Shown: one piece after another, positions 3,834-38,452 of the stretch
Layout: every line of letters starts with the position of its first letter
Position numbering within the stretch: position 1 is the first letter of the stretch
Source of the DNA: Eubacteriales bacterium
GTDB taxonomy: Bacteria > Bacillota > Clostridia > Oscillospirales > CAG-272
Reading direction: 5' to 3'
DNA length: 64,000 nt
Assembly: GCA_045120465.1 (NCBI GenBank)
Contig: JBGVEW010000071.1
Coordinates: forward strand, 6,444 to 70,443
Program-made: the position numbers and the translations under genes
The notes under the pieces: model-generated
What the model was told of the DNA's origin: nothing
Seen by the model: the letters and a program-made list of their open reading frames with translations, nothing else
The model's database searches: none

Positions 3834-3935
3834 AACAGTTCCTCCTTAAAAATGGGGTGAAAACAAGAGAAGAGCCGCTTGTGCGCTCTCGCGCAGGTTT
3901 GAAATTTTTGAGGTTATCAAAACGGTTCGTCTGCC

Positions 3936-24291: not shown

Positions 24292-24796
24292 TGCAGTCCT
24301 CCCAAGAAAAACGCGTCAATTCTCCCGCTGTTTTCAGATCTTCAAAGTTGTTTTGCCGCAAGATCTCGTAAACCGCGATCGCTACGGTGTTGGAAAGATT
24401 GAGAGAACGAAGCCCCTCTCTCATCGGAAGTCTGACGCAGGTCTCGGGATTTTGGAGCAACAGCTCCTCGGGGAGTCCCTTCGTTTCCTTTCCAAACATG
24501 ATGAATACGGGATCGGGATAGGAGATTTCGCTGTACACGTGCTTTGCCTTGGTGCTGAAATAATAGATCTTGGCATCGGGGTGCTTGGCGTAAAAATCAT
24601 CCAGACCGTCGTAGTAGGTAATATCCAATTGATGCCAGTAGTCAAGCCCCGCGCGCTTGAGCTTTTTGTCGTCGATGGTAAAGCCCAATGGGCGGATGAG
24701 GTGTAAGGACGCTCCCGTTGCAGCACAGGTGCGCGCGATATTGCCCGTGTTTTGCGGAATTTCGGGCTCGTGAAGAACGATATTGATCTTGCTCAT
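24284..24796 (-). CDS. trmL: tRNA (cytidine/uridine(34)-2'-O)-methyltransferase, SpoU/TrmL type
   Basis: Start moved to ATG 24796 (MSKINIVLHEPEIPQNTGNIARTCAATGASLHLI). SPOUT-type C-terminus (NLSNTVAIAVYEILRQ). Overlaps the mnmA start by 8 nt. Confidence 0.85.
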   Translation of the reverse strand: MSKINIVLHEPEIPQNTGNIARTCAATGASLHLIRPLGFTIDDKKLKRAGLDYWHQLDITYYDGLDDFYAKHPDAKIYYFSTKAKHVYSEISYPDPVFIMFGKETKGLPEELLLQNPETCVRLPMREGLRSLNLSNTVAIAVYEILRQNNFEDLKTAGELTRFSWEDCNG

Positions 24797-24979
24797 GCGT
24801 ATGGAGTCACCTTTCGGGAATTCTTTTTCATACATCATAGCACATTTTTTAAAAATCTGCAAGAGGAAAACGTAAAATTTACAATATTATAATATATTTT
24901 TATGTAAATTATAGTATAATAAATCCGAATATACTTTGGACGACCGTCCTCGGGCGGCAAAGAAAGGATCATACGAACC

Positions 24980-27742
24980 ATGTCACTCATAACAAAGCTT
25001 TTCGGCACTTACAGCCAACGCCAATTAAAGAAGCTCAAGGTCATTGCCGACCGTGTGGACGCTTTGACCGATACCTATCGCGCAATGAGCAACGCCGAGC
25101 TTCAGGCGATGACTCCCAAGTTCAAGGCGCGGCTTGCGGCAGGCGAAACGACCGACGATATTTTGCCCGATGCGTTTGCGGCAATTCGTGAGGCGGATGA
25201 CCGAGTCCTTGGCAAGCGTCCCTTCCGCGTTCAGGTTCTCGGCGGTATCGTGCTCCATCAGGGGCGCATTGCCGAAATGAAAACGGGTGAGGGGAAAACC
25301 CTTGTTGCAACGCTCCCCGCATATCTCAACGCGCTCACGGGTAACGGTGTGCATATTGTTACGGTCAACGATTATCTGGCGCGGGTCGGTGCCGAGGAAA
25401 TGGGACGCGTATATGAATTTATGGGGCTTTCCACAGGATTGGTCGTTCACGGACAGAGCCCTGAGGAAAAGCGCGCCGCATACGAGGCGGATATTACCTA
25501 TGGAACCAACAATGAGTACGGCTTTGACTATCTGCGTGACAATATGGTCATTTATAAGAGCCAGATGGTACAGCGCGGTCACGCCTTCGCCATCGTGGAC
25601 GAGGTGGACTCCATCCTCATTGATGAAGCACGCACGCCTTTGATTATTTCGGGAGCGGGAGAGACCGCAACCGATCTGTACGAACGCACCGACCGCTTGG
25701 TACGTACCATGCGCAAGTTCGTTATTAAGGAAATGGATACCAAGGCAGATCCCGATACCATCGATGCCGATTATATCGTGGATGAAAAGGCGAACAATGC
25801 CGTTTTGACCTCACAGGGAGCGCGAAAGGCAGAGGCATTTTTTGGTATTGAGAACTTTAACGATGCCGAAAACTCCACCATTTCGCATCACGTTCAGCAA
25901 GCGATCAAGGCGCACGGATGTATGCATCGTGACGTTGATTACGTTGTCAACGAGCACGGCGTTATGATCGTTGATTCCTTTACGGGACGTTTGATGCCCG
26001 GACGCCGCTATTCGGACGGTCTGCACCAAGCGATTGAGGCAAAGGAAGGCGTTAAAGTTCAAAAGGAGAACAAGACGCTGGCAACGATTACCTTCCAAAA
26101 CTATTTCCGTATGTACCGTAAGCTTTCGGGTATGACGGGTACGGCTCTGACCGAGGAAAACGAATTCCGTGAGATCTATAATCTTGACGTGGTGGAGATC
26201 CCCACCAATAAGCCCATGATCCGAGTGGATCGCAACGACGCGGTTTATCGCAGCATGGAGGGCAAGTATCAGGCAATCGTCAAGCAGGTCGTTGAATGTC
26301 ACGAAAAGGGACAACCCGTGCTCGTCGGTACGGTTTCCATCGATAAATCCGAGGCACTTTCCCTCCGACTGAAGCGTGCGGGAATCCCGCATACCGTCCT
26401 CAACGCCAAGTATCACGACCGTGAGGCGGAGATCGTCGCGCAGGCAGGTAAGCTCGGTGCGGTCACCATTTCCACTAACATGGCAGGACGCGGAACCGAT
26501 ATTCTGCTGGGCGGTAACCCCGAATTTATGGCAAAGGCAGAGATGCGTTCGCAAGGAATTTCGGAGGAGGCGATTGCCGCTTGCGCAAGCTTTACCGAAA
26601 GCGAGGACGAGGAAATCGCACAGGCAAAGCGCATCTTCCGTGAATTGGTTCAAAAGTATAAGGCGCAGATCGCACCCGAGGCGAAAAAGGTTTGCGAGGC
26701 GGGAGGTCTCTTTATTCTCGGTACCGAGCGTCACGAAAGCCGACGCATCGACAACCAGCTCCGCGGACGCTCCGGTCGTCAGGGCGACCCGGGGGAATCC
26801 AAATTCTTCCTCTCTATGGAGGACGATCTGATGCGCCTGTTCGGAGCCGACCGTATGCAGGGAGTAATCAATGCGCTCAATATGCCCGAGGATATGCCCA
26901 TCGATGCGCGCATCCTTTCGGGAGCGATCGAAAACGCGCAAAAGCGTATTGAGGATAACAACTTCAAACGCCGCAAGTACGTGTTGGCGTATGACGACGT
27001 GATGAATCAGCAGAGAACCATTATCTACAAGCAACGTCAGGACGTGCTGGATGGGGAGGATATTTCCGAGACCATCCGCAAGATGATCATTTCCTCGGTG
27101 GAGGGAACGATCGAGACCTATCTTCACGGAGAAAGCCCCGAGGATTGGGACATAGACGGCTTGCGCGCGCACTATATGGGACTTTTGACCTCGGAGTCGG
27201 ATTTCCGCTTTGAGGGAGAATTGACCTTTGAGCGTCGTGACGAGATTGGAGACGCGCTCTGCAACCGCGCGTTGGAGATTTACAAGGAAAAGGAAGCACT
27301 CTTTGGCTCCGAGACCTTCCGAGAGGTCGAGCGTGCGATCCTGTTGCGCCACGTTGATACGGCGTGGATGGAACATATCGACGTTATGGACGAATTAAAG
27401 AGCACCGTAGGACTTCAATCCTACGCGCAAAAAAATCCGATCAACGAATACCGTATTGAGGGTGCGGATCTGTTTGACGCGATGGTGGAGGATATCCGAA
27501 GCGGTACGGTGCGTGCGATTCTATCGGTGATGCCTCGTCCGCAGGCCATTCAGCGCGTGCAGGTAGCAAATCCCATTAACGAGGGATTGGCGGGTGAGGG
27601 AAGCACCAAAAAGAAGATCGTGATTCGTCGCGGCGGCTCGACCGTGGTCAAGGACAGTGCCTCGGTTGGCAGAAACGATCCTTGCCCTTGCGGCAGCGGT
27701 AAAAAGTATAAAAACTGCTGCCTGAGAAATCAGAATCAGTAA
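24980..27742 (+). CDS. secA: preprotein translocase ATPase SecA
   Basis: 920 aa. Motifs: MKTGEGKTLVATLP, DEVDSILIDEARTPLIISG, and the C-terminal zinc motif CPCGSGKKYKNCC. Confidence 0.97.
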   Translation: MSLITKLFGTYSQRQLKKLKVIADRVDALTDTYRAMSNAELQAMTPKFKARLAAGETTDDILPDAFAAIREADDRVLGKRPFRVQVLGGIVLHQGRIAEMKTGEGKTLVATLPAYLNALTGNGVHIVTVNDYLARVGAEEMGRVYEFMGLSTGLVVHGQSPEEKRAAYEADITYGTNNEYGFDYLRDNMVIYKSQMVQRGHAFAIVDEVDSILIDEARTPLIISGAGETATDLYERTDRLVRTMRKFVIKEMDTKADPDTIDADYIVDEKANNAVLTSQGARKAEAFFGIENFNDAENSTISHHVQQAIKAHGCMHRDVDYVVNEHGVMIVDSFTGRLMPGRRYSDGLHQAIEAKEGVKVQKENKTLATITFQNYFRMYRKLSGMTGTALTEENEFREIYNLDVVEIPTNKPMIRVDRNDAVYRSMEGKYQAIVKQVVECHEKGQPVLVGTVSIDKSEALSLRLKRAGIPHTVLNAKYHDREAEIVAQAGKLGAVTISTNMAGRGTDILLGGNPEFMAKAEMRSQGISEEAIAACASFTESEDEEIAQAKRIFRELVQKYKAQIAPEAKKVCEAGGLFILGTERHESRRIDNQLRGRSGRQGDPGESKFFLSMEDDLMRLFGADRMQGVINALNMPEDMPIDARILSGAIENAQKRIEDNNFKRRKYVLAYDDVMNQQRTIIYKQRQDVLDGEDISETIRKMIISSVEGTIETYLHGESPEDWDIDGLRAHYMGLLTSESDFRFEGELTFERRDEIGDALCNRALEIYKEKEALFGSETFREVERAILLRHVDTAWMEHIDVMDELKSTVGLQSYAQKNPINEYRIEGADLFDAMVEDIRSGTVRAILSVMPRPQAIQRVQVANPINEGLAGEGSTKKKIVIRRGGSTVVKDSASVGRNDPCPCGSGKKYKNCCLRNQNQ

Positions 27743-27753
27743 CGGAGTTGGTC

Positions 27754-28476
27754 ATGGGATTTGGATACGTATTGATCGGATATCTGGTCACGTTTGTGAT
27801 CTATCTGACCGTTCAGGCACTCAACGTAGGCTCCCTTGCAACGCTTTTGGGGTATGCGCTGATGTGCTACGGACTGTGGGGGCTCAACCGCTACCACGTC
27901 GCCTTTTCCATTGCAAAGTGGGCAGGCGTGGCGCGGCTTTGCCTGGTTCCTTATGCCGTTTTGTCGGATGCTTCTTCCATGTTCCTTTTTGATCTTCCTG
28001 TTTTGGGGGAGACTTGGAGCAACGCAGTGCATCTGTGTGGCTTTTGTCTGGAAATCGTCTTTCTCTTTGCAATGCTTTACGCGATTCGTATGCTGGCGGA
28101 TTCGGTCGAGCTTCCCAAGCTCTCCCGCGCGGCACTCCGGAACACGTTGTTCGTTGGGGCGTATGCCGTTTTGTATCTGGTGTGGTGTCTGCCGTTTGCA
28201 GAGGGGATTCGCCCGTACCTGACCTTTTCGATACAGCTGTTGAACCTCGCGGTCATTTTTCTCAATCTGTTGCTCCTTGTGCAGTGTACCAAAAGTATTT
28301 GCAGCGAGGGAGACGAGGAGGTCACACCCAAACGTTCCCGCTTTGAGTGGATCAACCGAATGGGGGATGCGTACGAGTCGGCACATTCCAAGCTGAACGA
28401 GCAGGCAAAAGCCGACGGTGAGGCGTTTATGCGCCGCCGTCGGGAAAAGAAAAATCAAAAAAAGAAAAAGCATTGA
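27754..28476 (+). CDS. hypothetical polytopic membrane protein with a basic C-terminal tail
   Basis: ATG 27754 has GGAG 6 nt upstream, only 11 nt after the secA stop. About 6 hydrophobic helices. C-terminus RRRREKKNQKKKKH. I recognise no family. Confidence 0.55.
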   Translation: MGFGYVLIGYLVTFVIYLTVQALNVGSLATLLGYALMCYGLWGLNRYHVAFSIAKWAGVARLCLVPYAVLSDASSMFLFDLPVLGETWSNAVHLCGFCLEIVFLFAMLYAIRMLADSVELPKLSRAALRNTLFVGAYAVLYLVWCLPFAEGIRPYLTFSIQLLNLAVIFLNLLLLVQCTKSICSEGDEEVTPKRSRFEWINRMGDAYESAHSKLNEQAKADGEAFMRRRREKKNQKKKKH

Positions 28477-28500
28477 TATTTTTGAAAAGGAGGGAAACAG

Positions 28501-29913
28501 ATGCGTCTTGCAATCAAGCAAAGCATGGGATTGTGGCTTTGTATTCCCGCAATTCTGTTTTTGGCAGAACCGAATATCGGCTTTCGTGATCTGTTTCCCA
28601 ACTGTATCGGGTATCTGTTGCTTTGCGCAGGGCTTTCGCGCGCGGCAGAGATCAACGACTACGTAGCCGATGCCGTTGCGGCTTTCAAAAAAATGGTTTG
28701 GATCAGCGTGGGCGCGATGCTGGCGGAGTATTATTTGCACAACGTCTTGCCAACGGAGGAAAAAGCGCTCAACACCTACGAAAGTCCAACGATGCTGTTG
28801 CTTTTTTCCTTTGTCATGCTGGTTCTCAAGTGTTATTTTTTGTTGCCCGCCTGTCGGGATTTGTTCCAAGGACTTGGGGCGTTTGCCGAGCGTCACGGCG
28901 GAGAAAAGATCTGCGAGGAGCGACACGGCAAAACCATCAGCGAGCGCATGAGTCGATTGACAAGAGTCTTTGTGGTGCTTTTGTCGGTGCTCTCGTTGCT
29001 GCCGGAACTTGCGGTGCTTGGCAGATTTGAATACGAGACGGAAAAAACACACGTGGATTGGTTCCGCTTTGTCGAGCTGTTCCGCACGTTGGCACTTTTC
29101 GCGGCGATCGCGCTTTCGATCTACTGGCTGATCCGTGTGCTTTCCTATATCGTTACGTTTCTCTCGGATCGGTCAATGTGTTGCGCCATAGAGGAACGGT
29201 ACGAGCGTGAAACACGTTGTAACGTTCCCATCAGAGAGTGGCGTCGTTATCGCTTCGCATTTTGGTTTTTAATGCTTGGTGCGGTCTTTTTTCTCTCGAT
29301 CCGTATGGACGACCGTGCAGTTTTGCCAAGCGCGTTTTGCGCATTGTTTGGTGTTATCGGTGTTTTTTGGACGGGTGTATCGGTCAAAACAAGGCATCGC
29401 GTGTGGATTTTGCTCACCGCTCTTTTGTCAGCGGTATGCAGTATTGCGGCGGGGAAGATCAACGATGAATATTTCAGACTTTACCTTTCTGCCGAGGCTT
29501 CTTACTATTCTACCACCGCATACCGATCCTTTTTAGCGGTCAGGATTTCTCAAATTGCCGAGGTTTTTCTGGTACTTCTTTTTTGGTTGACCGTCTTGGT
29601 CTGGCTGTATTCCTTTATCAAGGAAAAAGCGCGTGTGGCGTACAACGTTGAGGACGATCGGATTTCTGCCCGCGCAACCGAAAAAATGCACCGTCGTTTC
29701 CGCTTACGAGTGATTGTAAGTGCCGTATTATTCACCCTTTCCGCCGTCGGACAAGTATTCGAAATTCTTTTGCGCTTGCAATATCCGTGGCTGTGGTGGA
29801 TCTGTGTTCCTATCTCGTTGGCGGCAGTTCTCTCGTTTGTCGCGTTGCTGTTTGCGCTTTCGGATCATCTGGAGGAACAGGCACAAAGCGAAAAACAAAC
29901 GTATAAAGCCTGA
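28501..29913 (+). CDS. hypothetical polytopic membrane protein (470 aa)
   Basis: AAAAGGAGGGAAACAG-ATG. At least 9 hydrophobic helices. I recognise no catalytic motif. Confidence 0.6.
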   Translation: MRLAIKQSMGLWLCIPAILFLAEPNIGFRDLFPNCIGYLLLCAGLSRAAEINDYVADAVAAFKKMVWISVGAMLAEYYLHNVLPTEEKALNTYESPTMLLLFSFVMLVLKCYFLLPACRDLFQGLGAFAERHGGEKICEERHGKTISERMSRLTRVFVVLLSVLSLLPELAVLGRFEYETEKTHVDWFRFVELFRTLALFAAIALSIYWLIRVLSYIVTFLSDRSMCCAIEERYERETRCNVPIREWRRYRFAFWFLMLGAVFFLSIRMDDRAVLPSAFCALFGVIGVFWTGVSVKTRHRVWILLTALLSAVCSIAAGKINDEYFRLYLSAEASYYSTTAYRSFLAVRISQIAEVFLVLLFWLTVLVWLYSFIKEKARVAYNVEDDRISARATEKMHRRFRLRVIVSAVLFTLSAVGQVFEILLRLQYPWLWWICVPISLAAVLSFVALLFALSDHLEEQAQSEKQTYKA

Positions 29914-29931
29914 TTTTTGGCGCATACTGTC

Positions 29932-29952
29932 TTTGTAATTCCAAATTACAAA
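29932..29952 (+). promoter_or_regulatory. perfect AT-rich palindrome or stem-loop abutting the SD of the N/Q mini-ORF
   Basis: TTTGTAATT-cca-AATTACAAA, with 9-bp arms. It is followed immediately by AAGGAG (29953-29958). Confidence 0.45.
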
Positions 29953-29967
29953 AAGGAGTACAAAGCA

Positions 29968-30114
29968 ATGCAGAATAACAATCAGAATAACAATCAGAAC
30001 AACAATCAGAACAAGAATCAACAGAACAACAATCAAAACAAGAACCAGAACAAGAATCAGCAGAACAACAATCAGCAGAACAACAATCAGAATCAGAACA
30101 ACCGTTATCAGTGA
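29968..30114 (+). CDS. 48-aa Asn/Gln-repeat peptide (27 N, 15 Q), function unknown; it may be a leader peptide
   Basis: AAAGGAG lies 9 nt upstream of ATG 29968. Translation: MQNNNQNNNQNNNQNKNQQNNNQNKNQNKNQQNNNQQNNNQNQNNRYQ, ending in a double stop TGA-TAA. It lies in the same orientation inside a tightly packed operon. The track ORF 29917..30114 begins at an upstream TTG with no RBS. Confidence 0.5.
   Translation: MQNNNQNNNQNNNQNKNQQNNNQNKNQNKNQQNNNQQNNNQNQNNRYQ
29971..30102 (+). repeat. imperfect 12-nt tandem repeat (CAGAACAACAAT-like, about 10 units)
   Basis: cagaataacaat cagaataacaat cagaacaacaat cagaacaagaat ... All unit lengths are multiples of 3, so the N/Q frame is maintained. Confidence 0.8.
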
Positions 30115-30120
30115 TAACAG

Positions 30121-30136
30121 CCCTCCCTACGGAGGG
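30121..30136 (+). promoter_or_regulatory. stem-loop with an anti-SD arm between the mini-ORF and the ABC gene
   Basis: CCCTCC-ctac-GGAGGG, 6 nt after the stop codons. CCCTCC is also complementary to the downstream SD AGGAGGG (30151-30157). There is no U-tract, so it is not a classical terminator. Confidence 0.45.
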
Positions 30137-30164
30137 TACATAGCAACAAAAGGAGGGAACGGAT

Positions 30165-32474
30165 ATGCTTGAGATCGATCGGATCCCACGGGAAGTGTTT
30201 TTTGCGTTAGAACAAAAATCAATCGATACGGCAGATCTTTTGCTTGCAGTGCGTGCGGATCGCACGAGGGAGATGCAGGTAGGGGAGGTTTATCTGTTTG
30301 CTACGGAGGAGCAATTGATCCTGCTTTCGGGAATTGTTACCTTGCATCGTACCGAACAACTGCAACGCCACGGAGCACCCGTGTTACATACTTCGTTTTC
30401 CGAAAGTGGCTATGAGGTTTATCCCATTCGTACACTCTCGGCTTTTTCGGTTGAGGAATTGCTCTCCTCGGGGCGGCTGATCGCGCGCCGGGAGAAAGAG
30501 GGAGAGGAACCCTCACCGCTTTTGTTGGCTTCCTTTACCAATTTCTGCAAGGAATCCATGCTGATTTTTTCCAAATACGCAAACAAGCTTGCGGCGGGTG
30601 AGTCCCTCGAAATCGATCCCAAGGATCGCACCGAGGATAAGATCTGTCCCAAGTGCGGGATGCGCTATCCCGATCCCAATCGTAAGATCTGCCCCAAATG
30701 TATGGAGCGCGGTAAGCTCTTTCGACGCTTTTCGGTGTTTTTTTTGAAATATCGCAGATATCTGATCCTGTCCGTTCTGTCTTTGGTTTTGCTCAGCGGA
30801 ATGAGCATCCTGACCCCCTATCTTTCCAGCGGCTTCTTTTATGACGAGGTGATTGACAAAGCGGGACAGTTTGCGGGGCAACTTGTTCTTGTCATTTCGT
30901 TGATTATCCTCACCAATCTTTTTAAAATGCTTGCAACCATGGTCAACAACCTCGTTACGTCCGTGGTTGCCGCCAAGGTCGTATATGACCTCAAAAAGAC
31001 CATTTTCAGCGCGATCGAACGCTTGTCCATCAGCTTTTTCACCGGCAGGCAGACGGGAGGTTTGATGACGCAGGTCAACGAGGATGCCAACACGATCTAT
31101 ACCTTTTTCTGCGATAGTTTGCCCTATCTTTTGATCAATATCGTTCAGGTCATCGTTCTGTCGGTGCTGTTGTTTGTCATTCAACCGATTCTTGCCCTGG
31201 TGTCACTCGTCACCGTTCCGATCTTCTTTCTTTTGATGCGGTATATGGTTCGAAAATTGAGATTGTACCACGCTAAGCGCTATGCGGGCTCGCGCCAGAT
31301 GAACTCCTTTTTGGCAGACGTTCTTTCGGGCATGCGTGTGGTTAAAGCGTTTGCAAGGGAAGAGGAAGAAATCGAACGCTTTGGCGTGCGGAACGACAAT
31401 CTGGCGCAAAGCGAAAAAACGCTCGCGCTCTACACCAACACCGCGTGGCCCTTGGCACACTGGTTGCTTTACGTCGGCAACGTGATTGCATGGGGTGTTG
31501 GCGGCTATATGGCGATCAGCGGTCAGTGGAACATGACCTACGGTCTGCTTTTGACCTTTGTGACCTACGTAGGCATGATTTTCTCTCCATTGGAATTTTT
31601 CGTGAATTTTATCGACCGCGCGGCGGATTGTACCAATTCGTTGCAGCGTTTGTTTGAAATCATGGACGCACAGCCCGAGGTCAGCGAAAAGGAGGATCCC
31701 GTTCGCCCGAACCGTCTCGATGGGCGCGTGGAGTTTGACGGTGTCAGCTTCTCCTATCAAAAAGGGAAAAAGATTATCGACAACGTCAGCTTTGAGATTC
31801 CCGATGGGCATATTCTCGGAATCGTCGGACATACGGGAGCGGGAAAAAGCACGCTTGCCAATCTCATGATGCGTATGTATGATACCGAGGAGGGAGAGAT
31901 CCGCATCGGTGGGTATCCCATCAAGGATCTGGAGCTTTCGGCACTCTACCGCAATATTGCCATCGTATCGCAGGAGACCTACCTGTTTATTGGCACGATC
32001 CTCGATAACATTCGTTACGCGCGTCCGGACGCAAGCTTTGAGGAGGTCGTAGAGGCGGCAAAATGCGCAGGAGCGCATGACTTTATTATGAAGCTTCCGG
32101 ATGCGTATCATACGCGCATCGGATTTGGATATCAGGATCTTTCTGGGGGCGAGAGACAGCGTGTTTCCATCGCAAGAGCGATTTTGAAGGACCCCAAAAT
32201 CTTGATTTTGGACGAAGCGACCGCGGCAATGGATACCGCTACCGAGCGTAAGATCCAGGAGGCACTTTCCTATCTGACACGCGGCAAGACCACGATCATG
32301 ATCGCGCACCGTCTTTCCACCTTGCGTGATGCCGACGAATTGATCGTCATCGAGCGCGGACGGGTTGCGGAGAGAGGTACGCATAAGGAGCTTTTGCAAA
32401 AGAGCGACGGTGTTTATCATAAACTCTTTACCCTGCAAGAAGAAGCGCTGAAGAGCGCGGGAATCAGCGAATAA
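30165..32474 (+). CDS. ABC exporter (TMD-NBD half-transporter) with an N-terminal cytoplasmic extension of about 195 aa ending in a zinc ribbon
   Basis: 769 aa. CPKCGMRYPDPNRKICPKC lies just before TM1. Six TM helices. Walker A GHTGAGKSTL, signature LSGGERQRVSIARA, Walker B ILILDEATAAMD. Confidence 0.85.
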   Translation: MLEIDRIPREVFFALEQKSIDTADLLLAVRADRTREMQVGEVYLFATEEQLILLSGIVTLHRTEQLQRHGAPVLHTSFSESGYEVYPIRTLSAFSVEELLSSGRLIARREKEGEEPSPLLLASFTNFCKESMLIFSKYANKLAAGESLEIDPKDRTEDKICPKCGMRYPDPNRKICPKCMERGKLFRRFSVFFLKYRRYLILSVLSLVLLSGMSILTPYLSSGFFYDEVIDKAGQFAGQLVLVISLIILTNLFKMLATMVNNLVTSVVAAKVVYDLKKTIFSAIERLSISFFTGRQTGGLMTQVNEDANTIYTFFCDSLPYLLINIVQVIVLSVLLFVIQPILALVSLVTVPIFFLLMRYMVRKLRLYHAKRYAGSRQMNSFLADVLSGMRVVKAFAREEEEIERFGVRNDNLAQSEKTLALYTNTAWPLAHWLLYVGNVIAWGVGGYMAISGQWNMTYGLLLTFVTYVGMIFSPLEFFVNFIDRAADCTNSLQRLFEIMDAQPEVSEKEDPVRPNRLDGRVEFDGVSFSYQKGKKIIDNVSFEIPDGHILGIVGHTGAGKSTLANLMMRMYDTEEGEIRIGGYPIKDLELSALYRNIAIVSQETYLFIGTILDNIRYARPDASFEEVVEAAKCAGAHDFIMKLPDAYHTRIGFGYQDLSGGERQRVSIARAILKDPKILILDEATAAMDTATERKIQEALSYLTRGKTTIMIAHRLSTLRDADELIVIERGRVAERGTHKELLQKSDGVYHKLFTLQEEALKSAGISE

Positions 32475-32492
32475 GAAAGGAAGGTCTCACAG

Positions 32493-33038
32493 ATGCAAAA
32501 AAACGGTATCATGGAAGAAAACGGAGCCGAGAAAAAAACACGCACACTGGCGGAATTGTCGGTCACGGTTTGGCTCACACCCGAAAACGCGAGCTTTTCC
32601 TTCCAAAATAACTTTTTGTATATCAAATACGGAGAGATCGAGACGCGTGCCTTTCTCTGCCGACAGTTCCCGTTTGAATTGCAATGGGAATTTATTTCGG
32701 TGATGAATGAAGACAGCGAGGAGATCGGAATCATCCGCGACGTATCTTTGTTTGAGGGAGAGGCGGGGGCGATGCTCAAAAACGAGCTTGAACGTCGCTA
32801 TTATGCGCCGGTGATCAAACAGATCTTAAACGTTAAGGAACGTTACGGCTTTTCCTATTGGAAGGTACATACGGGTGAGGGCGAGGTCAATTTTACCCTG
32901 CGCGACACCTATCGCAGCATTATTCATGCGGGCGGCAACCGTATTTTGCTCTTGGACGTCAACGGCAACCGCTTTGAAATTCCCGACACGTCTTTGCTCG
33001 ATCGCAAAAGCTACAAAAAGATCGAGCTGTATCTGTAA
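32493..33038 (+). CDS. DUF1854-like protein (family assigned from memory, uncharacterised)
   Basis: 181 aa, soluble. It sits between the two ABC genes, with gaps of 18 and 14 nt. The C-terminal ..LLLDVNGNRFEIPDTSLLDRKSYKKIELYL resembles what I remember of DUF1854/PF08909. Confidence 0.55.
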   Translation: MQKNGIMEENGAEKKTRTLAELSVTVWLTPENASFSFQNNFLYIKYGEIETRAFLCRQFPFELQWEFISVMNEDSEEIGIIRDVSLFEGEAGAMLKNELERRYYAPVIKQILNVKERYGFSYWKVHTGEGEVNFTLRDTYRSIIHAGGNRILLLDVNGNRFEIPDTSLLDRKSYKKIELYL

Positions 33039-33052
33039 GGGGGCGCGACGGT

Positions 33053-35329
33053 ATGGATTATCGAGAACGGATGTACGAGCGCGCCAAAAAGCTTGATCCG
33101 ACGCTTGCGATCGAGGATATGGTCGATCTTTCAATGGGGAATTTAGACCCCGGCGAGGCAAAGCGCGCAGTCAAGGATTTTTATCTGGTTACGACGCGTG
33201 ATTTGAAGGTTTACCGTGAGGATTCTATGATTCTTTGCGAGTCGATTGAAAATATAGAATCCTTTCGAATCGTGTCGGGAGTTGGGTGTGTATTTGTGGC
33301 GTACGTGCGAAAGAGTGACGGAGAGCACGTGATCTTCGGACGTGCCGACAACCGCAGGCAGGGAATGCTTGCCGGGGCAGTCAAGCGCATCAATCACTAT
33401 TTACGCTATCAAAACGTAGATTTTTCCCATTTGGAAGCCGCGGGAGGCGGGCAGTGTTCCAAATGCGGCAAGCCCTTGCCGCGCGGCTCACGCACCTGTC
33501 CCCGTTGCGCATCCAAAAAGCAGGCGATCCTACGCCTGTTGGGGTTGGCGAGGGACGAAAAAGGAAAGCTCGCCCTTTCGGTGCTGTTTTTCTTTCTCGG
33601 TACGGGCGTTAGCCTTGTGATTCCGCAAATCAACCGCATCCTCGTCGATGCGTTTATCAGTCCCGTTGAAGCTTGGGATACGGCAACTCCGATCGGTAAG
33701 ATCGGAGCATGGGTCAGCTCCGCTCCCGCGGCAGGCTTTTGGGTAGCGTTTATCAGTGTGATCTTGTCCATGCTGTTCGTCAATCTCCTTAGGCGCCTCA
33801 TCGGTATTGCGCGCGGTTATTTTTTGACCGTTGCGGGCAATCGCCTGATTCTTCGCTTGCGCGATACGGTGTTTTCAAAAATTCAGCATCTTTCCATTTC
33901 CAAAATTTCAGAGCGTACATCGGGGGAATTGATGCAGCGTGTCAACAGTGATACGAGGCAGATCAAAATGTTTTTGATCAACCAGCTCCCCAACCTGATC
34001 GAACAGATACTGCTGCTTTTGGGTATCGGAATTTACGTCATCGTTCTGGCGGGGGGGAATTGGATCATCCCATTGTTAATTCTGGTTCCCGCGCCCTTTG
34101 TGGCGCTGGCGTTCCGCTTATTTTGGCGGTTTATGCGTCAGTTGTTTCAAAGGCGATGGCAGATCCACTCCGAGGCAAACGCCGTTTTGCACGATATTTT
34201 TTCGGGCATCCGTGTGGTTAAGGCGTACGGAATGGAAAAAAGAGAAGAGGAGCGCTTTGTCACAATGGCGGCACGCGAGCGCGACGCGCAGCTTCGCATT
34301 GAAAAGATCTGGGCTTTTTTGATGCCGATGCTTCATACGCTGATGGGTGTTGGAGAGTACGCGCTTTTGTTTTACGTGGGGAGCAGAATGCTTGACGGTT
34401 CGATGAGTGCGGGTGAAATGGCACAGTTTTCCGCATATGCGGGAATGTTGTTTGGCCCGATGTCCACTCTGATGAATTTTCCGCGCCAATTTATGCAAAT
34501 GATGACGTCATTGACGCGTGTTTATGAGATCATGGACGAAGAGGTTGAGGAAAAACGTGATGACGGGAGAGAGCGAAAAACGTTTGACGGTGTGATTGAT
34601 ATCAATCACGTGTCCTTTGGTTACGAGGATGCACACGAGGTGCTCAGGGATATCGATCTGCACATCAAGCCCGGGGAATTTATCGGGCTTGTCGGACGTT
34701 CGGGGGTCGGAAAATCTACGCTGATCAATCTGATCATGCGGATGTACGACGTGGACGAGGGCTCAATTACGATCGACGGTGAGGATATCCGAAAGATCCC
34801 CGAGGAGCATCTGCGCTCGCAGATGGGCGTGGTACTGCAGGAGAATTTTTTGTTCACGGGAACGGTATGGCAAAATCTGACCTATGCAAAGCCACACGCA
34901 ACGCGCGAGGAGGTCATTCAGGCATCAAAGACCGCGGGGGCACATGAGTTTATCATTCGCCTTCCCGACGGTTATAATACTTACGTTGGAGAGCGTGGGC
35001 ATACGCTCTCGGGTGGTGAGCGTCAGAGAATTTCGATCGCGCGAGCACTGTTGCACGATCCAAAGATCCTGATTCTTGACGAAGCCACGGCATCCTTGGA
35101 TACCGAAACCGAAAAGCTGATTCAGGATGCGTTGGCGGCACTTTCGGCGGGCAGAACGACCATTGCCATTGCGCACCGCCTTTCCACGCTCCGCAATGCC
35201 ACGCGGCTTGTGGTGTTGGATCGCAGCGGTGTTGCCGAGGTTGGCACACACGAGGAGCTGATGGCAAAAGAAGGCATCTATTACGGACTCGTTATGGCAC
35301 AGCGTGAAATGTCAAAGATGGAAAATTAA
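33053..35329 (+). CDS. ABC exporter (TMD-NBD) with an N-terminal extension of about 170 aa ending in a zinc ribbon; likely partner of 30165..32474
   Basis: 758 aa. CSKCGKPLPRGSRTCPRC lies before TM1. Walker A GRSGVGKSTL, signature LSGGERQRISIARA, Walker B ILILDEATASLD. Confidence 0.85.
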   Translation: MDYRERMYERAKKLDPTLAIEDMVDLSMGNLDPGEAKRAVKDFYLVTTRDLKVYREDSMILCESIENIESFRIVSGVGCVFVAYVRKSDGEHVIFGRADNRRQGMLAGAVKRINHYLRYQNVDFSHLEAAGGGQCSKCGKPLPRGSRTCPRCASKKQAILRLLGLARDEKGKLALSVLFFFLGTGVSLVIPQINRILVDAFISPVEAWDTATPIGKIGAWVSSAPAAGFWVAFISVILSMLFVNLLRRLIGIARGYFLTVAGNRLILRLRDTVFSKIQHLSISKISERTSGELMQRVNSDTRQIKMFLINQLPNLIEQILLLLGIGIYVIVLAGGNWIIPLLILVPAPFVALAFRLFWRFMRQLFQRRWQIHSEANAVLHDIFSGIRVVKAYGMEKREEERFVTMAARERDAQLRIEKIWAFLMPMLHTLMGVGEYALLFYVGSRMLDGSMSAGEMAQFSAYAGMLFGPMSTLMNFPRQFMQMMTSLTRVYEIMDEEVEEKRDDGRERKTFDGVIDINHVSFGYEDAHEVLRDIDLHIKPGEFIGLVGRSGVGKSTLINLIMRMYDVDEGSITIDGEDIRKIPEEHLRSQMGVVLQENFLFTGTVWQNLTYAKPHATREEVIQASKTAGAHEFIIRLPDGYNTYVGERGHTLSGGERQRISIARALLHDPKILILDEATASLDTETEKLIQDALAALSAGRTTIAIAHRLSTLRNATRLVVLDRSGVAEVGTHEELMAKEGIYYGLVMAQREMSKMEN

Positions 35330-35339
35330 ACAGAAAAAT

Positions 35340-35380
35340 GGGGGTGAGTCAAATGCAAAATGCATTTGGTACTCACCCCC
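35340..35380. repeat. solo copy of the SL1 module of the intergenic repeat; likely bidirectional terminator between convergent ABC genes
   Basis: GGGGGTGAGTCAAATGC-aaaat-GCATTTGgtACTCACCCCC. It starts 10 nt after the plus-strand stop (35329) and ends 9 nt before the minus-strand stop (35390). Confidence 0.7.
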
Positions 35381-35389
35381 ATGGTTTGA

Positions 35390-38300
35390 TTATTCACTTC
35401 TCAATGCTTCTACGGGATTGCGCTTTGCTGCAAATCTTGCGGGGAAGATGCCCGCAACCAAGGTCAGGATCATGCTGATCGCAACCAGAATGACTGCGCC
35501 CGCTACGGGAAGCGTTGCCTTGAGGTTGACAAGACCTGTGAGGTTAAAGAGAATGATATTGATGATTACGTTGAGTCCCAACGTGACGAGAATACCGATC
35601 ATACCCGCCACAAATCCCACGATCAGGGTCTCCGCGTTGAATACGCGGCTGACATCCTTTTTGGACGCACCGATCGCACGCAGGATACCGATCTCCTTGG
35701 TTCTTTCCAAAACCGAGATATAGGTGATGATACCGATCATAATCGAGGATACCACCAACGAGATGGCAACAAAGGCGATGAGCACGTAGGTGATGGCATT
35801 GAGGACGGTGGTGATGGAAGACATCAAAAGACCAACGTAGTCGGTAAATTCGATCTTCTTCAACTCACCCACGGAATCGTTATAGGCTCTGATCTCCGCG
35901 CTGATCATATCCTTATTTTCAAAGGAAGACGCGTAGAGATAGATGGATGAGGGGCTTTCTTCCTTCACGTCACCCAAAACAAAGAGGTTGTTTTCGTAGG
36001 TGGAATCCGAGAATTCGCGCGGCACACCGTCAAGCTCGTACAAAGCGGCAAATTGCGCATCGGTCAGTGAAACGGCAACCTCAGCGGCAGTCTTTTCGCC
36101 AAAGACCGTTTGCTTGACCTGTTCCGTGACCGTACTGGTTGCAAGCGCGGTGCAGAGAGCGGCTTTGAGCTCGGGAGAGGCGAGAATGATTTCGGGTGTG
36201 ATACCTGCGGGAATTTCCATTCCCATCTGGGGTGCTTGCAGAAGTGCCATTTGAATGATGGGCTTGAGCTGTTCGTCGGGCATTGCCGCAAACTGTGCGC
36301 TTGCCGCCGCGATCGCTTCCTCGGTAACGAAAATATTCATCAGGAAAGCCTTTGCGGTTTCCTCGTCCAATGTGTTGATATACTTGAGAACGACGTTCTT
36401 TTTCTGCTCTGCGGTAATCTCTTTTCCGGTGTCAAAGGGCTTGCCGGAGAGAACGTCCATTTCGGTATTTTCCTTTTGGAGAGCCAAAAGGTCGCTTCCC
36501 TTGGTGCGCTCCAATGCCTCTGCCGCCAAAGCGGAGGTGTAACCGATCGTGCCTGCGGTCAGGGTAGTTGCGCTCACGCCTTCACGTGGACGGACGATAC
36601 CGACGACCTTCAGCGTAAATCCGACGTCCTTGTCCTTGTAGAGGGTTTCACGTCCTTCTGCGGTTGCGCTCAGATCCACGTAGTTACCGCTTGCTTCGTC
36701 GTACTTGTAGCACTCGGAAGCCAGGATCAAACGGTATTCCATTTGGCGGATCTCTTCAAAGGTCCAGGATTTACGTTCGGAAAGATCAACCTGCTCTCCG
36801 TTCATTGCGGCGTTAAAGCCTTGCATCATTTCCGCTTTTGTGCGAAGACCCAAAGAGTAAAGGGAAAGGTCGCTGATCTCGTTTTTACCGTTTACAACGA
36901 GGATCACTTCGTTTGCGGCGGTAGGCCAGCGGCTGCCCTCATCAACAAATTCATACTGCTCCTTGAGCAGATCGTTGACCAACGCGTCGCTGTTTTGGTC
37001 AATCGGAGCCAGCATTTCCTGCCATACGTCAAGCGTATCGGCGGACATCATGCCACCCATGATACCCGTTGATCCGCCCATCATATTGCCCATCATGCCG
37101 TTGGCACCGGAGAGCCACCCCATCATATCGGACTTGATTACGGGAGCGGTGCTGTTGGGGTTGAGCGCATCACCCTCGCGGACGAAGATGCTCCAGTTGA
37201 AATCGTAGGCGTATTGAACAGCCGAGAGATATTCGTCGAATTTTCCGGATTCCTCAAGATGCTTCTTAAAGGAAACGAGGTCGTTGTAGGAGGTACCGCT
37301 TGTACCCATTGCATTGACGAGCTGAGCCAGAATGATACTTTCGTAGATCTTATCCAGATCGTGATCGAATTCACCGCTGTTTTGCTCCTCCATCAGGGTG
37401 GTCATAATGCCGCCGAGATTCATGGATTGTGCGTGCAGCTCAAGGGGATAGCCCGAAAGTGTTTCGCGCTGCACCGAATCGATATAGGCGTTGACACCGG
37501 TGGAGACCGAAAGGATCAGCGCGATACCGATGATACCGATCGAGCCCGCAAAGGAGGTCATAAAGGTGCGTCCTTTTTTGGTCATCAGGTTATTGAGCGA
37601 GAGCGAGAGGGCTGTTAGGAAGGACATGGACTTCTTTTTCTTGCCTCCTGCGGGAGCAACGCCGCTGCCGCCAAGCTGAAGCGGTACGACGTCCTTTTCG
37701 TTGACCGAGAACATTCCCCAAAATCCGCGTTTTTTCTTGGCGTGTTCCGCACGTGTCGCGGGATCGCTGTCTGCTGAATAGGGATTGGTATCCTCAACCA
37801 CGCGTCCATCCACCACGCTGATGATACGAGAGGAATACTCGCGCGCAAGCTCGGGGTTGTGCGTGACCATAATGATCAGCTTTTTCTTGGAGATTTTGCG
37901 CAGAATGTCCATGATCTGCACGCTGGTCTGCGTATCCAAAGCACCCGTCGGCTCATCCGCCAAAAGGATATCGGGGTTATTGACCAGAGCGCGTGCGATG
38001 GCAACGCGTTGCATTTGTCCGCCCGAAAGCTGATTGGGCTTTTTCTTCAGTTGGTTTCCAAGCCCAACCTCTTTGAGTGCGTTTGCCGCGCGGCGGCGAC
38101 GCTCCTTTTTAGAGATACCCGAAAGCGTGAGTGCCAATTCTACGTTGGCAAGCACGGTTTGGTGGGGAATGAGGTTGTAGCTTTGAAATACGAAGCCGAT
38201 GGAATGGTTACGGTAGGTATCCCATGCCGCGTCATCATATTTTTTGGTGGAAACGTTGTTGATGATCAAATCACCGCTGGTGTACTGATCCAAGCCGCCG

Positions 38301-38452
38301 ATGATGTTCAAAAGAGTCGTTTTACCGCATCCGGACGGACCTAAGATCGATACGAATTCGCTTTTTCGGAATTGCAGGGAAATGCCGTCAAGTGCGCGGA
38401 CCTTTGTGTCGCCCGCTTTATAGTCCTTGACAATGTTTTTCAGTTCAAGCAA
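35390..38452 (-). CDS. fused ABC ATPase / FtsX-family permease (MacB-like) with a very large extracytoplasmic domain
   Basis: 1020 aa. TTG start with GGGAGG 8 nt upstream. N-terminal NBD: [36 protein letters not shown]. The first TM is near residue 300, followed by about 580 aa without TM helices, then a C-terminal FtsX 3-TM bundle. Confidence 0.85.

What the first reader, a model, noticed from the sequence alone, without database searches (positions are those of the whole stretch)
30165..35329. ABC / DUF1854 / ABC operon in which both half-transporters carry a large N-terminal cytoplasmic domain ending in a zinc ribbon
Three genes sit with gaps of 18 and 14 nt.
- Both ABC proteins (769 and 758 aa) have canonical TMD-NBD exporter cores. 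Walker A, signature and Walker B are all intact in both, so both ATP sites appear catalytic.
- Each core is preceded by about 170-195 aa of non-membrane sequence that ends in CxxC-N10/11-CxxC immediately before TM1: CPKCGMRYPDPNRKICPKC and CSKCGKPLPRGSRTCPRC.
- Between them lies a 181-aa soluble protein. From memory I assign it to DUF1854 (PF08909), an uncharacterised family usually encoded beside ABC exporter genes.
- I recall that some proteobacterial members are annotated as cyanophycin-metabolism-associated. This is a recollection and must be verified. If true, a link to nitrogen-rich polymers would be intriguing given the N/Q mini-ORF immediately upstream.

The substrate and the role of the zinc-ribbon domains are unknown. 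Cytoplasmic substrate or partner capture, or regulation, are possibilities.
Basis: partly seen in the sequence, partly recalled or inferred. Interest (0 to 1): 0.65.

Follow-up and report, generated by a model that had tools for sequence, protein, structure and literature searches.

The report
Clostridial ABC exporter with DUF1854 partner
This is a real three-gene operon, conserved across gut Clostridia, for a two-subunit ABC exporter whose subunits each carry an N-terminal PH-like domain plus zinc ribbon and work with a small DUF1854 protein; the family is already catalogued but its cargo is unknown, and the neighbouring Asn/Gln-rich mini-gene belongs to a different gene module.

Summary

New findings:
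- The two N-terminal extensions are paralogues (hhalign 99.1%).
- AlphaFold2 (pLDDT 89) models them as seven strands plus a C-terminal helix. Foldseek's best matches are almost all PH domains.
- The domain is found only at the N-terminus of ABC exporters (582 clusters at 50% identity).
- NCBIfam's "cyanophycin metabolism-associated ABC transporter" model (NF052233) is the best hit for all of them, always below its cutoff. In some relatives the alignment runs into the N-domain.
- Natural fusions (N-domain–TMD–NBD–DUF1854, 935-1013 aa) show that DUF1854 is a transporter subunit.
- ABC1–DUF1854–ABC2 is conserved in all 88 related Clostridia loci, with no cphA-like gene within 10 kb.

The N/Q mini-ORF is real and conserved. 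It travels with two unknown membrane proteins downstream of secA, and that module and the ABC module each occur without the other. The suggested N/Q link is therefore weak.

Verdict: a new heterodimeric, cphA-independent variant of a known but uncharacterised exporter family. The accessory domains most likely recognise or gate cargo. The cargo itself is unknown.

The parts
30165..32474 (+). ABC1: half-transporter of 769 aa, built as PH-like domain, zinc ribbon, type IV (ABCB-like) TMD and NBD
   Evidence: ORF and Shine-Dalgarno site. Pfam PF00664 and PF00005. Best NCBIfam hit NF052233 at 489.5 bits, below the 880 cutoff. The closest solved structures (ABCB11, ABCB1, TM288, Sav1866, TmrAB, MsbA) all align only from residue ~180 onward.
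30165..30593 (+). ABC1 N-terminal PH-like domain (aa 1-143): seven beta strands followed by a C-terminal helix at aa 126-143
   Evidence: AlphaFold2 with a 17-sequence alignment gives pLDDT 89.2 and pTM 0.80. Foldseek's top PDB hits are almost all PH or PTB domains (E about 1e-2, probability 0.97-1.0). There is no Pfam or PDB sequence match. The domain is conserved from residue 1 in 72 orthologues.
30645..30701 (+). ABC1 zinc ribbon CPKCGMRYPDPNRKICPKC (aa 161-179), directly before the elbow helix (aa 182-196) and TM1
   Evidence: CxxC-N11-CxxC is present in 74 of 75 orthologues at an invariant length of 19. RYPD..R in the loop is at least 90% conserved. Pfam Zn_Ribbon_1 and DZR hits are weak and below cutoff.
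30762..31592 (+). ABC1 transmembrane domain (PF00664, aa 200-476)
31779..32225 (+). ABC1 nucleotide-binding domain (PF00005, aa 539-687) with all motifs at consensus
32493..33038 (+). DUF1854 protein (181 aa), a soluble accessory subunit. The PF08909 domain spans aa 56-178 (nt 32658-33026). The N-terminal 16 aa are predicted disordered.
   Evidence: Pfam E 2.9e-32. NF052234 scores 73.2 bits, below the 150 cutoff. AlphaFold2 gives pLDDT 85.4 and two beta-rich lobes, each ending in a helix. No convincing PDB neighbour. In other Bacillota the domain is fused to the C-terminus of an ABC1-like NBD.
33053..35329 (+). ABC2: half-transporter of 758 aa with the same architecture, a paralogue of ABC1
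   Evidence: ORF and Shine-Dalgarno site. Pfam. NF052233 scores 528.1 bits, below the 880 cutoff. Its N-domain is homologous to that of ABC1 (hhalign 99.1%, E 4e-19, 137 columns).
33053..33412 (+). ABC2 N-terminal PH-like domain (aa ~1-120), inferred from homology to the ABC1 N-domain
   Evidence: hhalign. Conserved GVGC..EY.RK.DGE and VKR.N.YLR motifs.
33455..33508 (+). ABC2 zinc ribbon CSKCGKPLPRGSRTCPRC (aa 135-152)
   Evidence: Present in 67 of 74 orthologues and lost in 7.
33572..34462 (+). ABC2 transmembrane domain (PF00664, aa 174-470)
34643..35092 (+). ABC2 nucleotide-binding domain (PF00005, aa 531-680) with all motifs at consensus

Best explanation
The three genes encode one transport machine.

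Architecture:
- ABC1 and ABC2 form a heterodimeric type IV (ABCB-like) ABC exporter with two catalytically competent ATP sites.
- DUF1854 is a soluble third subunit that docks on the cytoplasmic (NBD) side.
- Each half-transporter starts with a cytoplasmic PH-like beta-sandwich. A four-cysteine zinc ribbon ties it directly to the elbow helix and TM1, which places it beside the cytoplasmic entrance of the translocation pathway.

Proposed mechanism:
- The two PH-like/zinc-ribbon modules and the two-lobed DUF1854 protein most likely act as cargo receptors or gates.
- They would capture a hydrophilic substrate made in the cytoplasm, probably a polymer or peptide destined for the cell envelope or the exterior.
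- They would feed it into the inward-open cavity and couple its presence to ATP hydrolysis.
- The analogies are the N-terminal C39-like domains of HlyB and PCAT exporters, and the C-terminal carbohydrate-binding domain of Wzt. This comparison rests on my own knowledge.

What is shown here: the gene and domain architecture, its conservation, the paralogy of the N-domains, the predicted folds, and the fusion of DUF1854 to the NBD in relatives.

What is inferred: heterodimer formation, cytoplasmic docking of DUF1854, a cargo-receptor role, and the polymeric nature of the cargo. The last is extrapolated from cofitness of distant beta-proteobacterial homologues with cphA/cphA' genes.
For: - The architecture and motifs are confirmed.
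- ABC1-DUF1854-ABC2 keeps the same order, with both N-extensions, in all full-length loci of 88 related Clostridia contigs. The flanking genes vary (radA, spoIVA, ffh-rpsP, GH106, MarR and others), so the three genes form a self-contained unit.
- DUF1854 is nearly as conserved as the ABC cores. Median identities in 29 loci are 71% for DUF1854, 76% and 69% for the two ABC cores, and 83% for SecA. The N-domains evolve faster, at 53% and 45%.
- Rosetta-stone fusions (N-domain-TMD-NBD-DUF1854, 935-1013 aa) occur in Limnochordales, Clostridium sp. Marseille-P299 and Oscillospiraceae.
- The N-domains are paralogous and confidently modelled as PH-like.
- The N-domain profile finds 582 clusters at 50% identity. 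The domain is always N-terminal, and the 10 full-length hits that were scanned all carry ABC exporter domains.
- All ten tested hits have NF052233 as their best NCBIfam hit. Some of those alignments run into profile positions 23-125, so the N-domain is shared with the proteobacterial cyanophycin-associated family.
- Price et al. (bioRxiv 10.1101/072470) report that DUF1854 and the adjacent ABC gene are cofit with cphA/cphA' in Acidovorax and Cupriavidus. They propose that DUF1854 is a subunit of an exporter for an amino-acid polymer.
- The region is transcribed in bovine gut metatranscriptomes.
Against: - There is no experimental or structural-complex evidence for this system.
- The cargo is unknown, and no polymer synthetase lies nearby.
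- The window proteins score well below the NF052233 and NF052234 equivalog cutoffs, so function cannot be transferred from the proteobacterial cofitness data.
- The PH-like assignment rests on one AlphaFold2 model built from 17 sequences. The Foldseek E-values are weak (8.7e-3 or worse) and the TM-scores modest (0.3-0.55).
- The DUF1854 model has pTM of only 0.59 and no convincing structural neighbour.
- The ABC2 zinc ribbon is dispensable in 7 lineages.
- The fusions show physical association. They do not show what DUF1854 does.
Confidence: 0.55

Rival explanations
1. The exporter's cargo is the Asn/Gln/Lys-rich mini-protein encoded just upstream (29968-30114). That peptide would be a ribosomal counterpart of the CphA-made amino-acid polymer, and the PH-like, zinc-ribbon and DUF1854 modules would recognise it.
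For: - The N/Q ORF, with a Shine-Dalgarno site and an MQNN start, lies directly upstream of ABC1 in 35 distinct loci.
- One metatranscriptome contig spans the 3' end of Y, the N/Q ORF, the hairpin and the ABC1 start.
- Proteobacterial relatives are linked to an amino-acid polymer.
Against: - The modules separate in other lineages. Y-N/Q without the ABC module occurs in L098 (followed by pcrA-ligA) and L099, and L100 has secA-X-Y without it.
- ABC1-DUF1854-ABC2 occurs without any N/Q ORF within 10 kb in at least 25 loci.
- L042 and L044 keep X, Y and the ABC operon but have no N/Q ORF.
- Promoter-like sequences lie between the hairpin and ABC1 in L011, L012 and L058.
- The exporter has no leader-peptide or peptidase (C39) features.
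Confidence: 0.1
2. It is an MsbA-like flippase for a lipid or a lipid-linked envelope precursor. The PH-like domains would bind membrane lipid head groups, and DUF1854 would regulate activity.
For: - The second-best NCBIfam hits are MsbA (397-415 bits) and a glucan exporter.
- The module shows housekeeping-like conservation and variable housekeeping neighbours.
- The PH-like domain sits at the membrane surface.
- Eukaryotic PH domains often bind lipids (my own knowledge).
Against: - The MsbA scores fall below the 602-bit cutoff and well below the NF052233 scores.
- Bacterial PH-like folds have no established lipid-binding role.
- No lipid or glycan biosynthesis genes are consistently linked.
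Confidence: 0.2
3. It is an ordinary heterodimeric multidrug or toxin efflux pump, and the extra domains are lineage-specific decorations with only a regulatory or stabilising role.
For: - The closest solved structures are ABCB1, ABCB11, TM287/288, Sav1866 and TmrAB.
- A MarR gene lies upstream in one locus, L064.
- Two further ABC exporter loci lie immediately downstream in the window.
Against: - The accessory parts are conserved across at least 582 sequence clusters and are fused in some lineages.
- DUF1854 is about as conserved as the ABC cores, 71% median against SecA's 83%.
- Both ATP sites are at consensus, whereas heterodimeric bacterial multidrug exporters such as TM287/288 and TmrAB have one degenerate site (my own knowledge).
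- No regulator is consistently linked.
Confidence: 0.1

Closest known systems
NCBIfam NF052233 / NF052234: 'cyanophycin metabolism-associated ABC transporter' plus 'cyanophycin metabolism-associated DUF1854 family protein' (beta-proteobacteria; cofitness data in Price et al., bioRxiv 10.1101/072470)
   Same: - These are the best NCBIfam hits for all three window proteins.
- The pairing is the same: a DUF1854 protein with a ~766-aa ABC exporter that carries an N-terminal extension.
- In some relatives the N-domain aligns with profile positions 23-125 of NF052233.
- DUF1854 was already proposed to be a transporter subunit.
   Different: - Scores are far below the equivalog cutoffs: 489.5 and 528.1 against 880, and 73.2 against 150.
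- This system has two paralogous half-transporters flanking DUF1854. The proteobacterial system is described with a single ABC gene.
- No cphA or cphA' lies in the 64-kb window or within 10 kb in 88 related loci.
- The host is a spore-forming gut Clostridia lineage.
Exporters with an N-terminal cytosolic cargo-handling domain: HlyB (C39-like domain) and PCAT1/bacteriocin exporters (C39 peptidase)
   Same: A soluble N-terminal domain is tethered immediately before TM1 of an ABCB-like half-transporter, where it can hand cargo to the inward-open cavity (architecture; mechanism from my own knowledge).
   Different: - The domain here is PH-like plus a zinc ribbon. It is not a papain-like C39 fold, and there is no PF03412 hit.
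- No double-glycine leader substrate, membrane fusion protein or outer membrane factor is evident.
- A third soluble subunit, DUF1854, is present.
Wzm-Wzt O-antigen ABC transporter with its C-terminal carbohydrate-binding domain on the NBD
   Same: A beta-rich accessory module is attached to, or acts with, the C-terminus of the NBD. In Wzt it recognises the polymer terminus, and it can work in trans (my own knowledge). Here DUF1854 is encoded right after ABC1 and is fused to the NBD C-terminus in some relatives.
   Different: - Wzm-Wzt belongs to a different ABC fold class (type V, with separate TMD and NBD polypeptides).
- No fold or sequence similarity of DUF1854 to any solved structure was detected.
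Heterodimeric bacterial type IV exporters TM287/288, TmrAB and BmrCD
   Same: These are two adjacent paralogous TMD-NBD half-transporter genes. TM288 and TmrA are among the closest solved bacterial chains.
   Different: Those pumps have one degenerate ATP site and no N-terminal soluble domain or third subunit (my own knowledge). Here both sites are at consensus in all orthologues, and each half carries about 170-195 extra N-terminal residues.

Membership tests
Pfam PF08909 (DUF1854) | Score above the gathering threshold (26.8 bits) | tested here: met
   111.7 bits, E 2.9e-32, covering profile positions 7-128 of 130
NCBIfam NF052234 (cyanophycin metabolism-associated DUF1854 protein, equivalog) | Score of at least 150 bits | tested here: not met
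   73.2 bits
NCBIfam NF052233 (cyanophycin metabolism-associated ABC transporter, equivalog) | Score of at least 880 bits | tested here: not met
   ABC1 scores 489.5 bits and ABC2 528.1 bits. Both alignments start only at profile positions 124-127.
Cyanophycin-associated system | Genomic linkage to cyanophycin synthetase genes (cphA/cphA') | tested here: not met
   No such gene was found among the Pfam-scanned ORFs of the window. No ORF of at least 600 aa with a Mur-ligase P-loop occurs in the window or in 88 loci (a crude test).
Type IV (ABCB-like) ABC exporter | PF00664 TMD followed by a PF00005 NBD with Walker A, Q-loop, signature, Walker B-E and H-loop | tested here: met
   The closest PDB chains are ABCB11, ABCB1, TM288 and Sav1866.
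Heterodimeric ABC exporter with one degenerate site | Non-consensus residues (catalytic Glu, signature, H-loop) in one subunit | tested here: not met
   Both subunits have LSGGE, ILILDEAT and IAHR in 73-75 of 74-75 orthologues.
PH-like fold | Seven-stranded antiparallel beta-sandwich capped by a C-terminal alpha-helix, with structural similarity to solved PH domains | tested here: met
   The AlphaFold2 secondary-structure order is seven strands followed by helix 126-143, at pLDDT 89.2. The Foldseek top hits are nearly all PH or PTB domains with probability 0.97-1.0, but E is only about 1e-2 and TM 0.3-0.55. This is a fold-level call, not proof of homology.
Described bacterial PH families in Pfam (bPH families) | A significant Pfam hit in the N-terminal 150 residues | tested here: not met
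   No Pfam family at E of 0.1 or better in that region, and no PDB sequence relative.
Zinc ribbon | Two CxxC knuckles 10-11 residues apart, conserved, with a Pfam zinc-ribbon hit | tested here: inconclusive
   The motif is conserved in 74 of 75 ABC1 and 67 of 74 ABC2 orthologues. Pfam Zn_Ribbon_1 scores 14.1 and 20.1 bits, below the 25-bit cutoff. Metal binding cannot be tested with these tools.
Peptidase-containing ABC transporter (PCAT/bacteriocin exporter) | An N-terminal C39 peptidase or C39-like domain | tested here: not met
   No Peptidase_C39 hit. The NHLM and bacteriocin ABC models score far below their cutoffs.

The most novel reading that the evidence does not exclude
The DUF1854-type exporters would be a widespread, undescribed secretion route for leaderless, highly hydrophilic amino-acid polymers. 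The cargo would be non-ribosomal (made by CphA-like enzymes) in beta-proteobacteria. In this Clostridia clade it would be ribosomal: the hypervariable Asn/Gln/Lys-rich mini-protein encoded next door. The PH-like/zinc-ribbon domains and the two-lobed DUF1854 protein would form a cytoplasmic cage that recognises and threads the polymer.
Probability: 0.1. Interest if true: 0.75.

Novelty: new variant of a known kind. Interest (0 to 1): 0.45.

Why it matters
DUF1854-linked ABC exporters are common in gut and rumen Clostridia. The genome scan found 174 species genomes with a relative, and the N-domain defines 582 clusters at 50% identity. DUF1854 and the ABC cores are only somewhat less conserved than SecA. 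Even so, public records call these proteins only 'ABC transporter ATP-binding protein' or 'DUF1854 domain-containing protein'.

This work defines the architecture: two PH-like/zinc-ribbon N-domains plus a fusion-validated third subunit. It also shows that the system exists independently of cyanophycin synthetases. Together these give a concrete target for structural work and for finding the cargo, and they caution against transferring the 'cyanophycin-associated' label to Firmicutes.

A PH-like domain tethered by a zinc ribbon to TM1 of an ABC exporter has, as far as the searched literature shows, not been described.

Tried and rejected
- N-domains as diverged DUF1854 copies: rejected. BLASTP found nothing. 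hhalign gave less than 1% probability against whole DUF1854 and against each lobe.
- DUF1854 as an internal tandem duplication: no sequence support (hhalign 5%).
- Solved-structure relatives of DUF1854, the N-domain, X or Y by sequence: none.
- Foldseek on the DUF1854 model: only weak, low-TM hits such as HIN-200 at TM 0.22.
- tblastn of DUF1854 against PLSDB plasmids, to reach proteobacterial loci: no match.
- Rfam scan of 24000-36000 for a leader or riboswitch: only chance-level hits.
- Promoter and terminator scan: nothing informative in the Y-N/Q-ABC1 interval.
- Automatic consensus folding of the post-N/Q hairpin. The MAFFT alignment anchors on the invariant TACAT but misaligns stems of variable length, so only 4 pairs were recovered. 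The per-sequence folds are clearer.
It was repeated with 4 sequences.
- The paper on an 'uncharacterized ABC transporter' in Cupriavidus zinc resistance concerns an unrelated glycerol importer.
- N/Q ORF as a classical attenuation leader: considered unlikely, not excluded. It is 40-74 codons long, mostly Asn and Gln, and hypervariable in length. It is followed by a single hairpin without a U-tract.
Full report
**1. Observation.**

Each has a Shine-Dalgarno site at the right distance.

Pfam finds ABC_membrane plus ABC_tran in both large proteins. The middle protein hits PF08909/DUF1854 at E 2.9e-32. The quoted zinc-ribbon strings are present at aa 161-179 of ABC1 and aa 135-152 of ABC2, just upstream of the first hydrophobic helix. 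Walker A, Q-loop, LSGGE, ILILDEAT and the H-loop are at consensus in both proteins.

The recollection about cyanophycin annotation is also right. NCBIfam contains NF052233 (cyanophycin metabolism-associated ABC transporter, 766 positions) and NF052234 (cyanophycin metabolism-associated DUF1854 family protein). These are the best NCBIfam hits for the window proteins. The scores are 489.5, 528.1 and 73.2 bits, all far below the equivalog cutoffs of 880 and 150.

**2. Are the N-terminal extensions real?**

Yes, on several grounds.
- I collected 88 related loci: 5 through exact-protein look-ups, 80 from a scan of one genome per species (in which 174 stretches encode a relative), and 3 more.
- Every locus long enough to show it has the same order, ABC1-DUF1854-ABC2. 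tblastn detects both N-domains down to 25-40% identity.
- Orthologue lengths are 748-800 aa for ABC1 and 714-774 aa for ABC2.
- Alignments have full occupancy from residue 1, with a conserved MxEIDxIP start in ABC1.
- CxxC-N11-CxxC is kept in 74 of 75 ABC1 orthologues at an invariant length. CxxC-N10-CxxC is kept in 67 of 74 ABC2 orthologues. Seven lineages have lost the ABC2 ribbon but kept the rest of the domain.

**3. What the N-domains are.**

Direct BLASTP between the two N-domains sees only the ribbon. Profile-profile comparison of the orthologue alignments gives 99.1% probability (E 4e-19) over 137 columns, so the two extensions are paralogous. They are not related to DUF1854 (less than 1% probability).

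AlphaFold2 on ABC1 residues 1-200 with 17 homologues gives pLDDT 89.2 and pTM 0.80. The order of elements is:
- a short helix;
- seven strands;
- a long C-terminal helix (aa 126-143);
- the ribbon;
- a helix at aa 182-196 leading into TM1.

Foldseek against the PDB returns almost only PH and PTB domains at the top (PDZ-RhoGEF, TBC1D23, Net1, Tiam1, BRAG2, Exo84 and others). Probabilities are 0.97-1.0, but E-values are weak (about 1e-2) and TM-scores are 0.3-0.55. I therefore call it PH-like at the level of fold. No Pfam family or solved structure matches by sequence. Solved ABC exporters align only from residue ~180 onward.

**4. How widespread the domain is, and what it goes with.**

A profile of the N-domain was searched against 1.84 billion cluster representatives. 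It finds 582 clusters at E of 1e-3 or better and 235 at 1e-10 or better. The match is always at the N-terminus. Full-length members are about 742-823 aa.

Ten full-length hits were scanned, and all are ABC exporters. All ten have NF052233 as their best NCBIfam hit (475-591 bits, below cutoff). In several, the alignment to the NF052233 profile starts at positions 23-71, inside the N-terminal domain. The PH-like/ribbon extension is therefore a hallmark of the whole DUF1854-associated exporter family, including the proteobacterial cyanophycin-associated branch.

Four hits of 935-1013 aa are natural fusions, N-domain-TMD-NBD-DUF1854. They come from Limnochordales, Clostridium sp. Marseille-P299 (WP_066712443.1) and Oscillospiraceae. 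This is Rosetta-stone evidence that DUF1854 works physically with the transporter, attached at the C-terminus of the ABC1-type NBD. That is also where its gene lies here.

**5. DUF1854 itself.**

With a 90-sequence alignment, AlphaFold2 gives pLDDT 85.4 and pTM 0.59. It predicts a disordered N-terminus and two beta-rich lobes, each ending in a helix (strands at aa 33-83 plus helix 90-100; strands at aa 107-163 plus helix 171-180).

Foldseek finds no convincing neighbour. The best hit is E 5.6e-3 at TM 0.22 (tandem-OB HIN domains), and one PH domain appears at rank 24. PDB sequence and profile searches find nothing. The lobes show no sequence similarity to each other.

DUF1854 is strongly constrained. 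In 29 loci with all features, median identity to the window is:

| Protein or region | Median identity |
|---|---|
| SecA | 83% |
| ABC1 core | 76% |
| DUF1854 | 71% |
| ABC2 core | 69% |
| ABC1 N-domain | 53% |
| ABC2 N-domain | 45% |

. The extreme C-terminus (…IELYL) is nearly invariant.

**6. Context.**

The window is a chromosomal segment of an uncultured Clostridia lineage (Oscillospiraceae or Eubacteriales-like) from gut metagenomes, many of them bovine. It carries housekeeping genes: a gyrase/topoisomerase IV subunit A, dnaE, mnmA, secA, uvrC and hom.

No cyanophycin synthetase is present in the window. A crude motif test found no CphA-like ORF within 10 kb in any of the 88 loci.

In the more distant half of the loci, the three-gene module is flanked by unrelated genes: radA, spoIVA, MarR, SDR, GH106 and ffh-rpsP-khpA. 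The module is therefore self-contained.

Metatranscriptome contigs from bovine gut cover the whole secA-to-ABC2 stretch at low depth, so the region is expressed in vivo.

**7. The N/Q mini-ORF.**

It is real. ATG 29968 to stop 30114 encodes 48 aa (MQNNNQNNNQ…), with AAAGGAG upstream. Equivalent ORFs of 40-74 aa occur at the same place in 35 distinct loci.

A GC-rich hairpin follows, whose arms differ between loci while pairing is kept, and then an invariant TACAT motif.

The ORF does not travel with the exporter.
- It always follows two unknown polytopic membrane proteins, X (27754-28476) and Y (28501-29913), downstream of secA.
- A scan for Y relatives found Y-N/Q without the ABC module. In L098, Y-N/Q-hairpin-TACATAG is followed by pcrA and ligA. 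L099 has Y-N/Q and no ABC or DUF1854 match. L100 has secA-X-Y followed by a GNAT gene.
- Conversely, at least 25 loci have ABC1-DUF1854-ABC2 with no N/Q-rich ORF within 10 kb.
- L042 and L044 keep X, Y and the ABC genes but lack the N/Q ORF.
- In L011, L012 and L058, promoter-like sequences lie between the hairpin and ABC1.

The adjacency in this clade is thus most simply lineage-specific synteny. N/Q as cargo is not excluded, but it is weakly supported.

**8. Mechanism.**

What is shown:
- two paralogous ABCB-type half-transporters with consensus ATP sites;
- a PH-like module tied by a Cys4 ribbon to the elbow helix of each;
- a conserved soluble two-lobed protein that in other species is fused to the NBD.

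What is inferred:
- The three proteins form one complex on the cytoplasmic face.
- The accessory modules capture or gate a hydrophilic cytoplasmic substrate. The analogies are the C39-like domains of HlyB and PCAT, and the Wzt C-terminal domain (my own knowledge).
- The only functional data concern distant beta-proteobacterial homologues. There, DUF1854 and the ABC gene are cofit with cphA/cphA', and an exported amino-acid polymer was proposed. Because the window proteins fail the equivalog cutoffs and lack cphA neighbours, this is a lead for cargo type, not a transferable annotation.

Rivals are an MsbA-like lipid or lipid-linked flippase, an ordinary drug pump, and N/Q-peptide export. They are set out with their evidence in the Rival explanations section.

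**9. Novelty and verdict.**

The gene pairing is already catalogued in Pfam and NCBIfam, and a function has been proposed. The searched literature holds nothing else on DUF1854 or PF08909, and nothing on a bacterial ABC exporter with a PH-like N-domain.

What is new here:
- the fold assignment of the N-domains and their paralogy;
- the heterodimeric arrangement with two consensus sites, around DUF1854, in Clostridia;
- the demonstration that the N-domain is family-wide;
- independence from cphA;
- the uncoupling of the N/Q mini-ORF from the exporter.

I rate it a new variant of a known, uncharacterised kind, of moderate interest.

Noticed in passing
window 29968-30114 (+): A conserved mini-ORF encodes a 48-aa peptide made almost only of Asn, Gln and Lys (MQNNNQNNNQNNNQNKNQQ…RYQ), with a good Shine-Dalgarno site. 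Equivalents of 40-74 aa occur in 35 distinct loci, with hypervariable repeat number and subclade-specific C-terminal tails such as YEQKKNER. It co-occurs with the membrane proteins X and Y, not with the ABC module. Its function is unknown.
   Followed up: partly
window 30120-30142 (+): A GC-rich hairpin (GCCCTCC-CTAC-GGAGGGT) starts 5 nt after the N/Q stop codon and is followed by an invariant TACAT(A) motif. The stems differ in sequence between loci but pairing is kept (for example GCCCCC/GGGGGT and ATCCCC/GGGGAT). There is no U-tract. The motif also precedes pcrA in L098, where no ABC operon follows. Whether it is a terminator, a processing site or a protein-binding site is unresolved.
   Followed up: partly
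window 27754-28476 (X) and 28501-29913 (Y), + strand: Two polytopic membrane proteins have no Pfam, NCBIfam or PDB match and lie immediately after secA (stop at 27742). The arrangement is conserved in about 45 loci, including distant ones (L058, L100). Y shows an internal duplication (aa 3-237 against aa 246-464; hhalign 80.6%). X weakly resembles one Y half (19.6%, E 1e-3).
   Followed up: partly
L040, L042, L043, L044, L045, L047, L063 (ABC2 orthologues): These seven lineages have lost the ABC2 zinc ribbon while keeping the PH-like part and TM1. The ABC1 ribbon is never lost, apart from one assembly-gap case (L046).
   Followed up: no
P0179, P0192, P0219, P0228 (not in the window): Natural single-chain fusions, N-domain-TMD-NBD-DUF1854 (935-1013 aa), occur in Limnochordales, Clostridium sp. 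Marseille-P299 and Oscillospiraceae. One (P0219) has a long Gly/Ala-rich linker, and another (P0228) has a Lys/Asp/Glu-rich insert inside DUF1854.
   Followed up: yes
window 29989: One bovine-gut metatranscriptome contig carries a 12-nt (one NNNQ-type repeat unit) deletion inside the N/Q ORF. Local contig depth there (8.9-27.8 in three of the four runs) exceeds the ~2-5 of the flanks. This could reflect higher expression or collapse of related repeats.
   Followed up: no
window 35390-38452 (-) and 38550-42055 (-): A 1020-aa fused ABC-ATPase/FtsX (MacB-like) protein and a further pair of half-transporter genes (583 and 585 aa, no N-extension) lie directly downstream on the opposite strand. The MacB-like gene is also found near the module in many related loci, at 47-88% identity.
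   Followed up: no
window 25254-25961 (secA): Metatranscriptome contig depth is 30-215 here against ~1-5 elsewhere in the region. Cross-mapping from conserved secA segments of other taxa is the likely cause.
   Followed up: no
window 2628-5729 (-): Two adjacent BspA-type leucine-rich-repeat proteins (401 and 597 aa).
   Followed up: no
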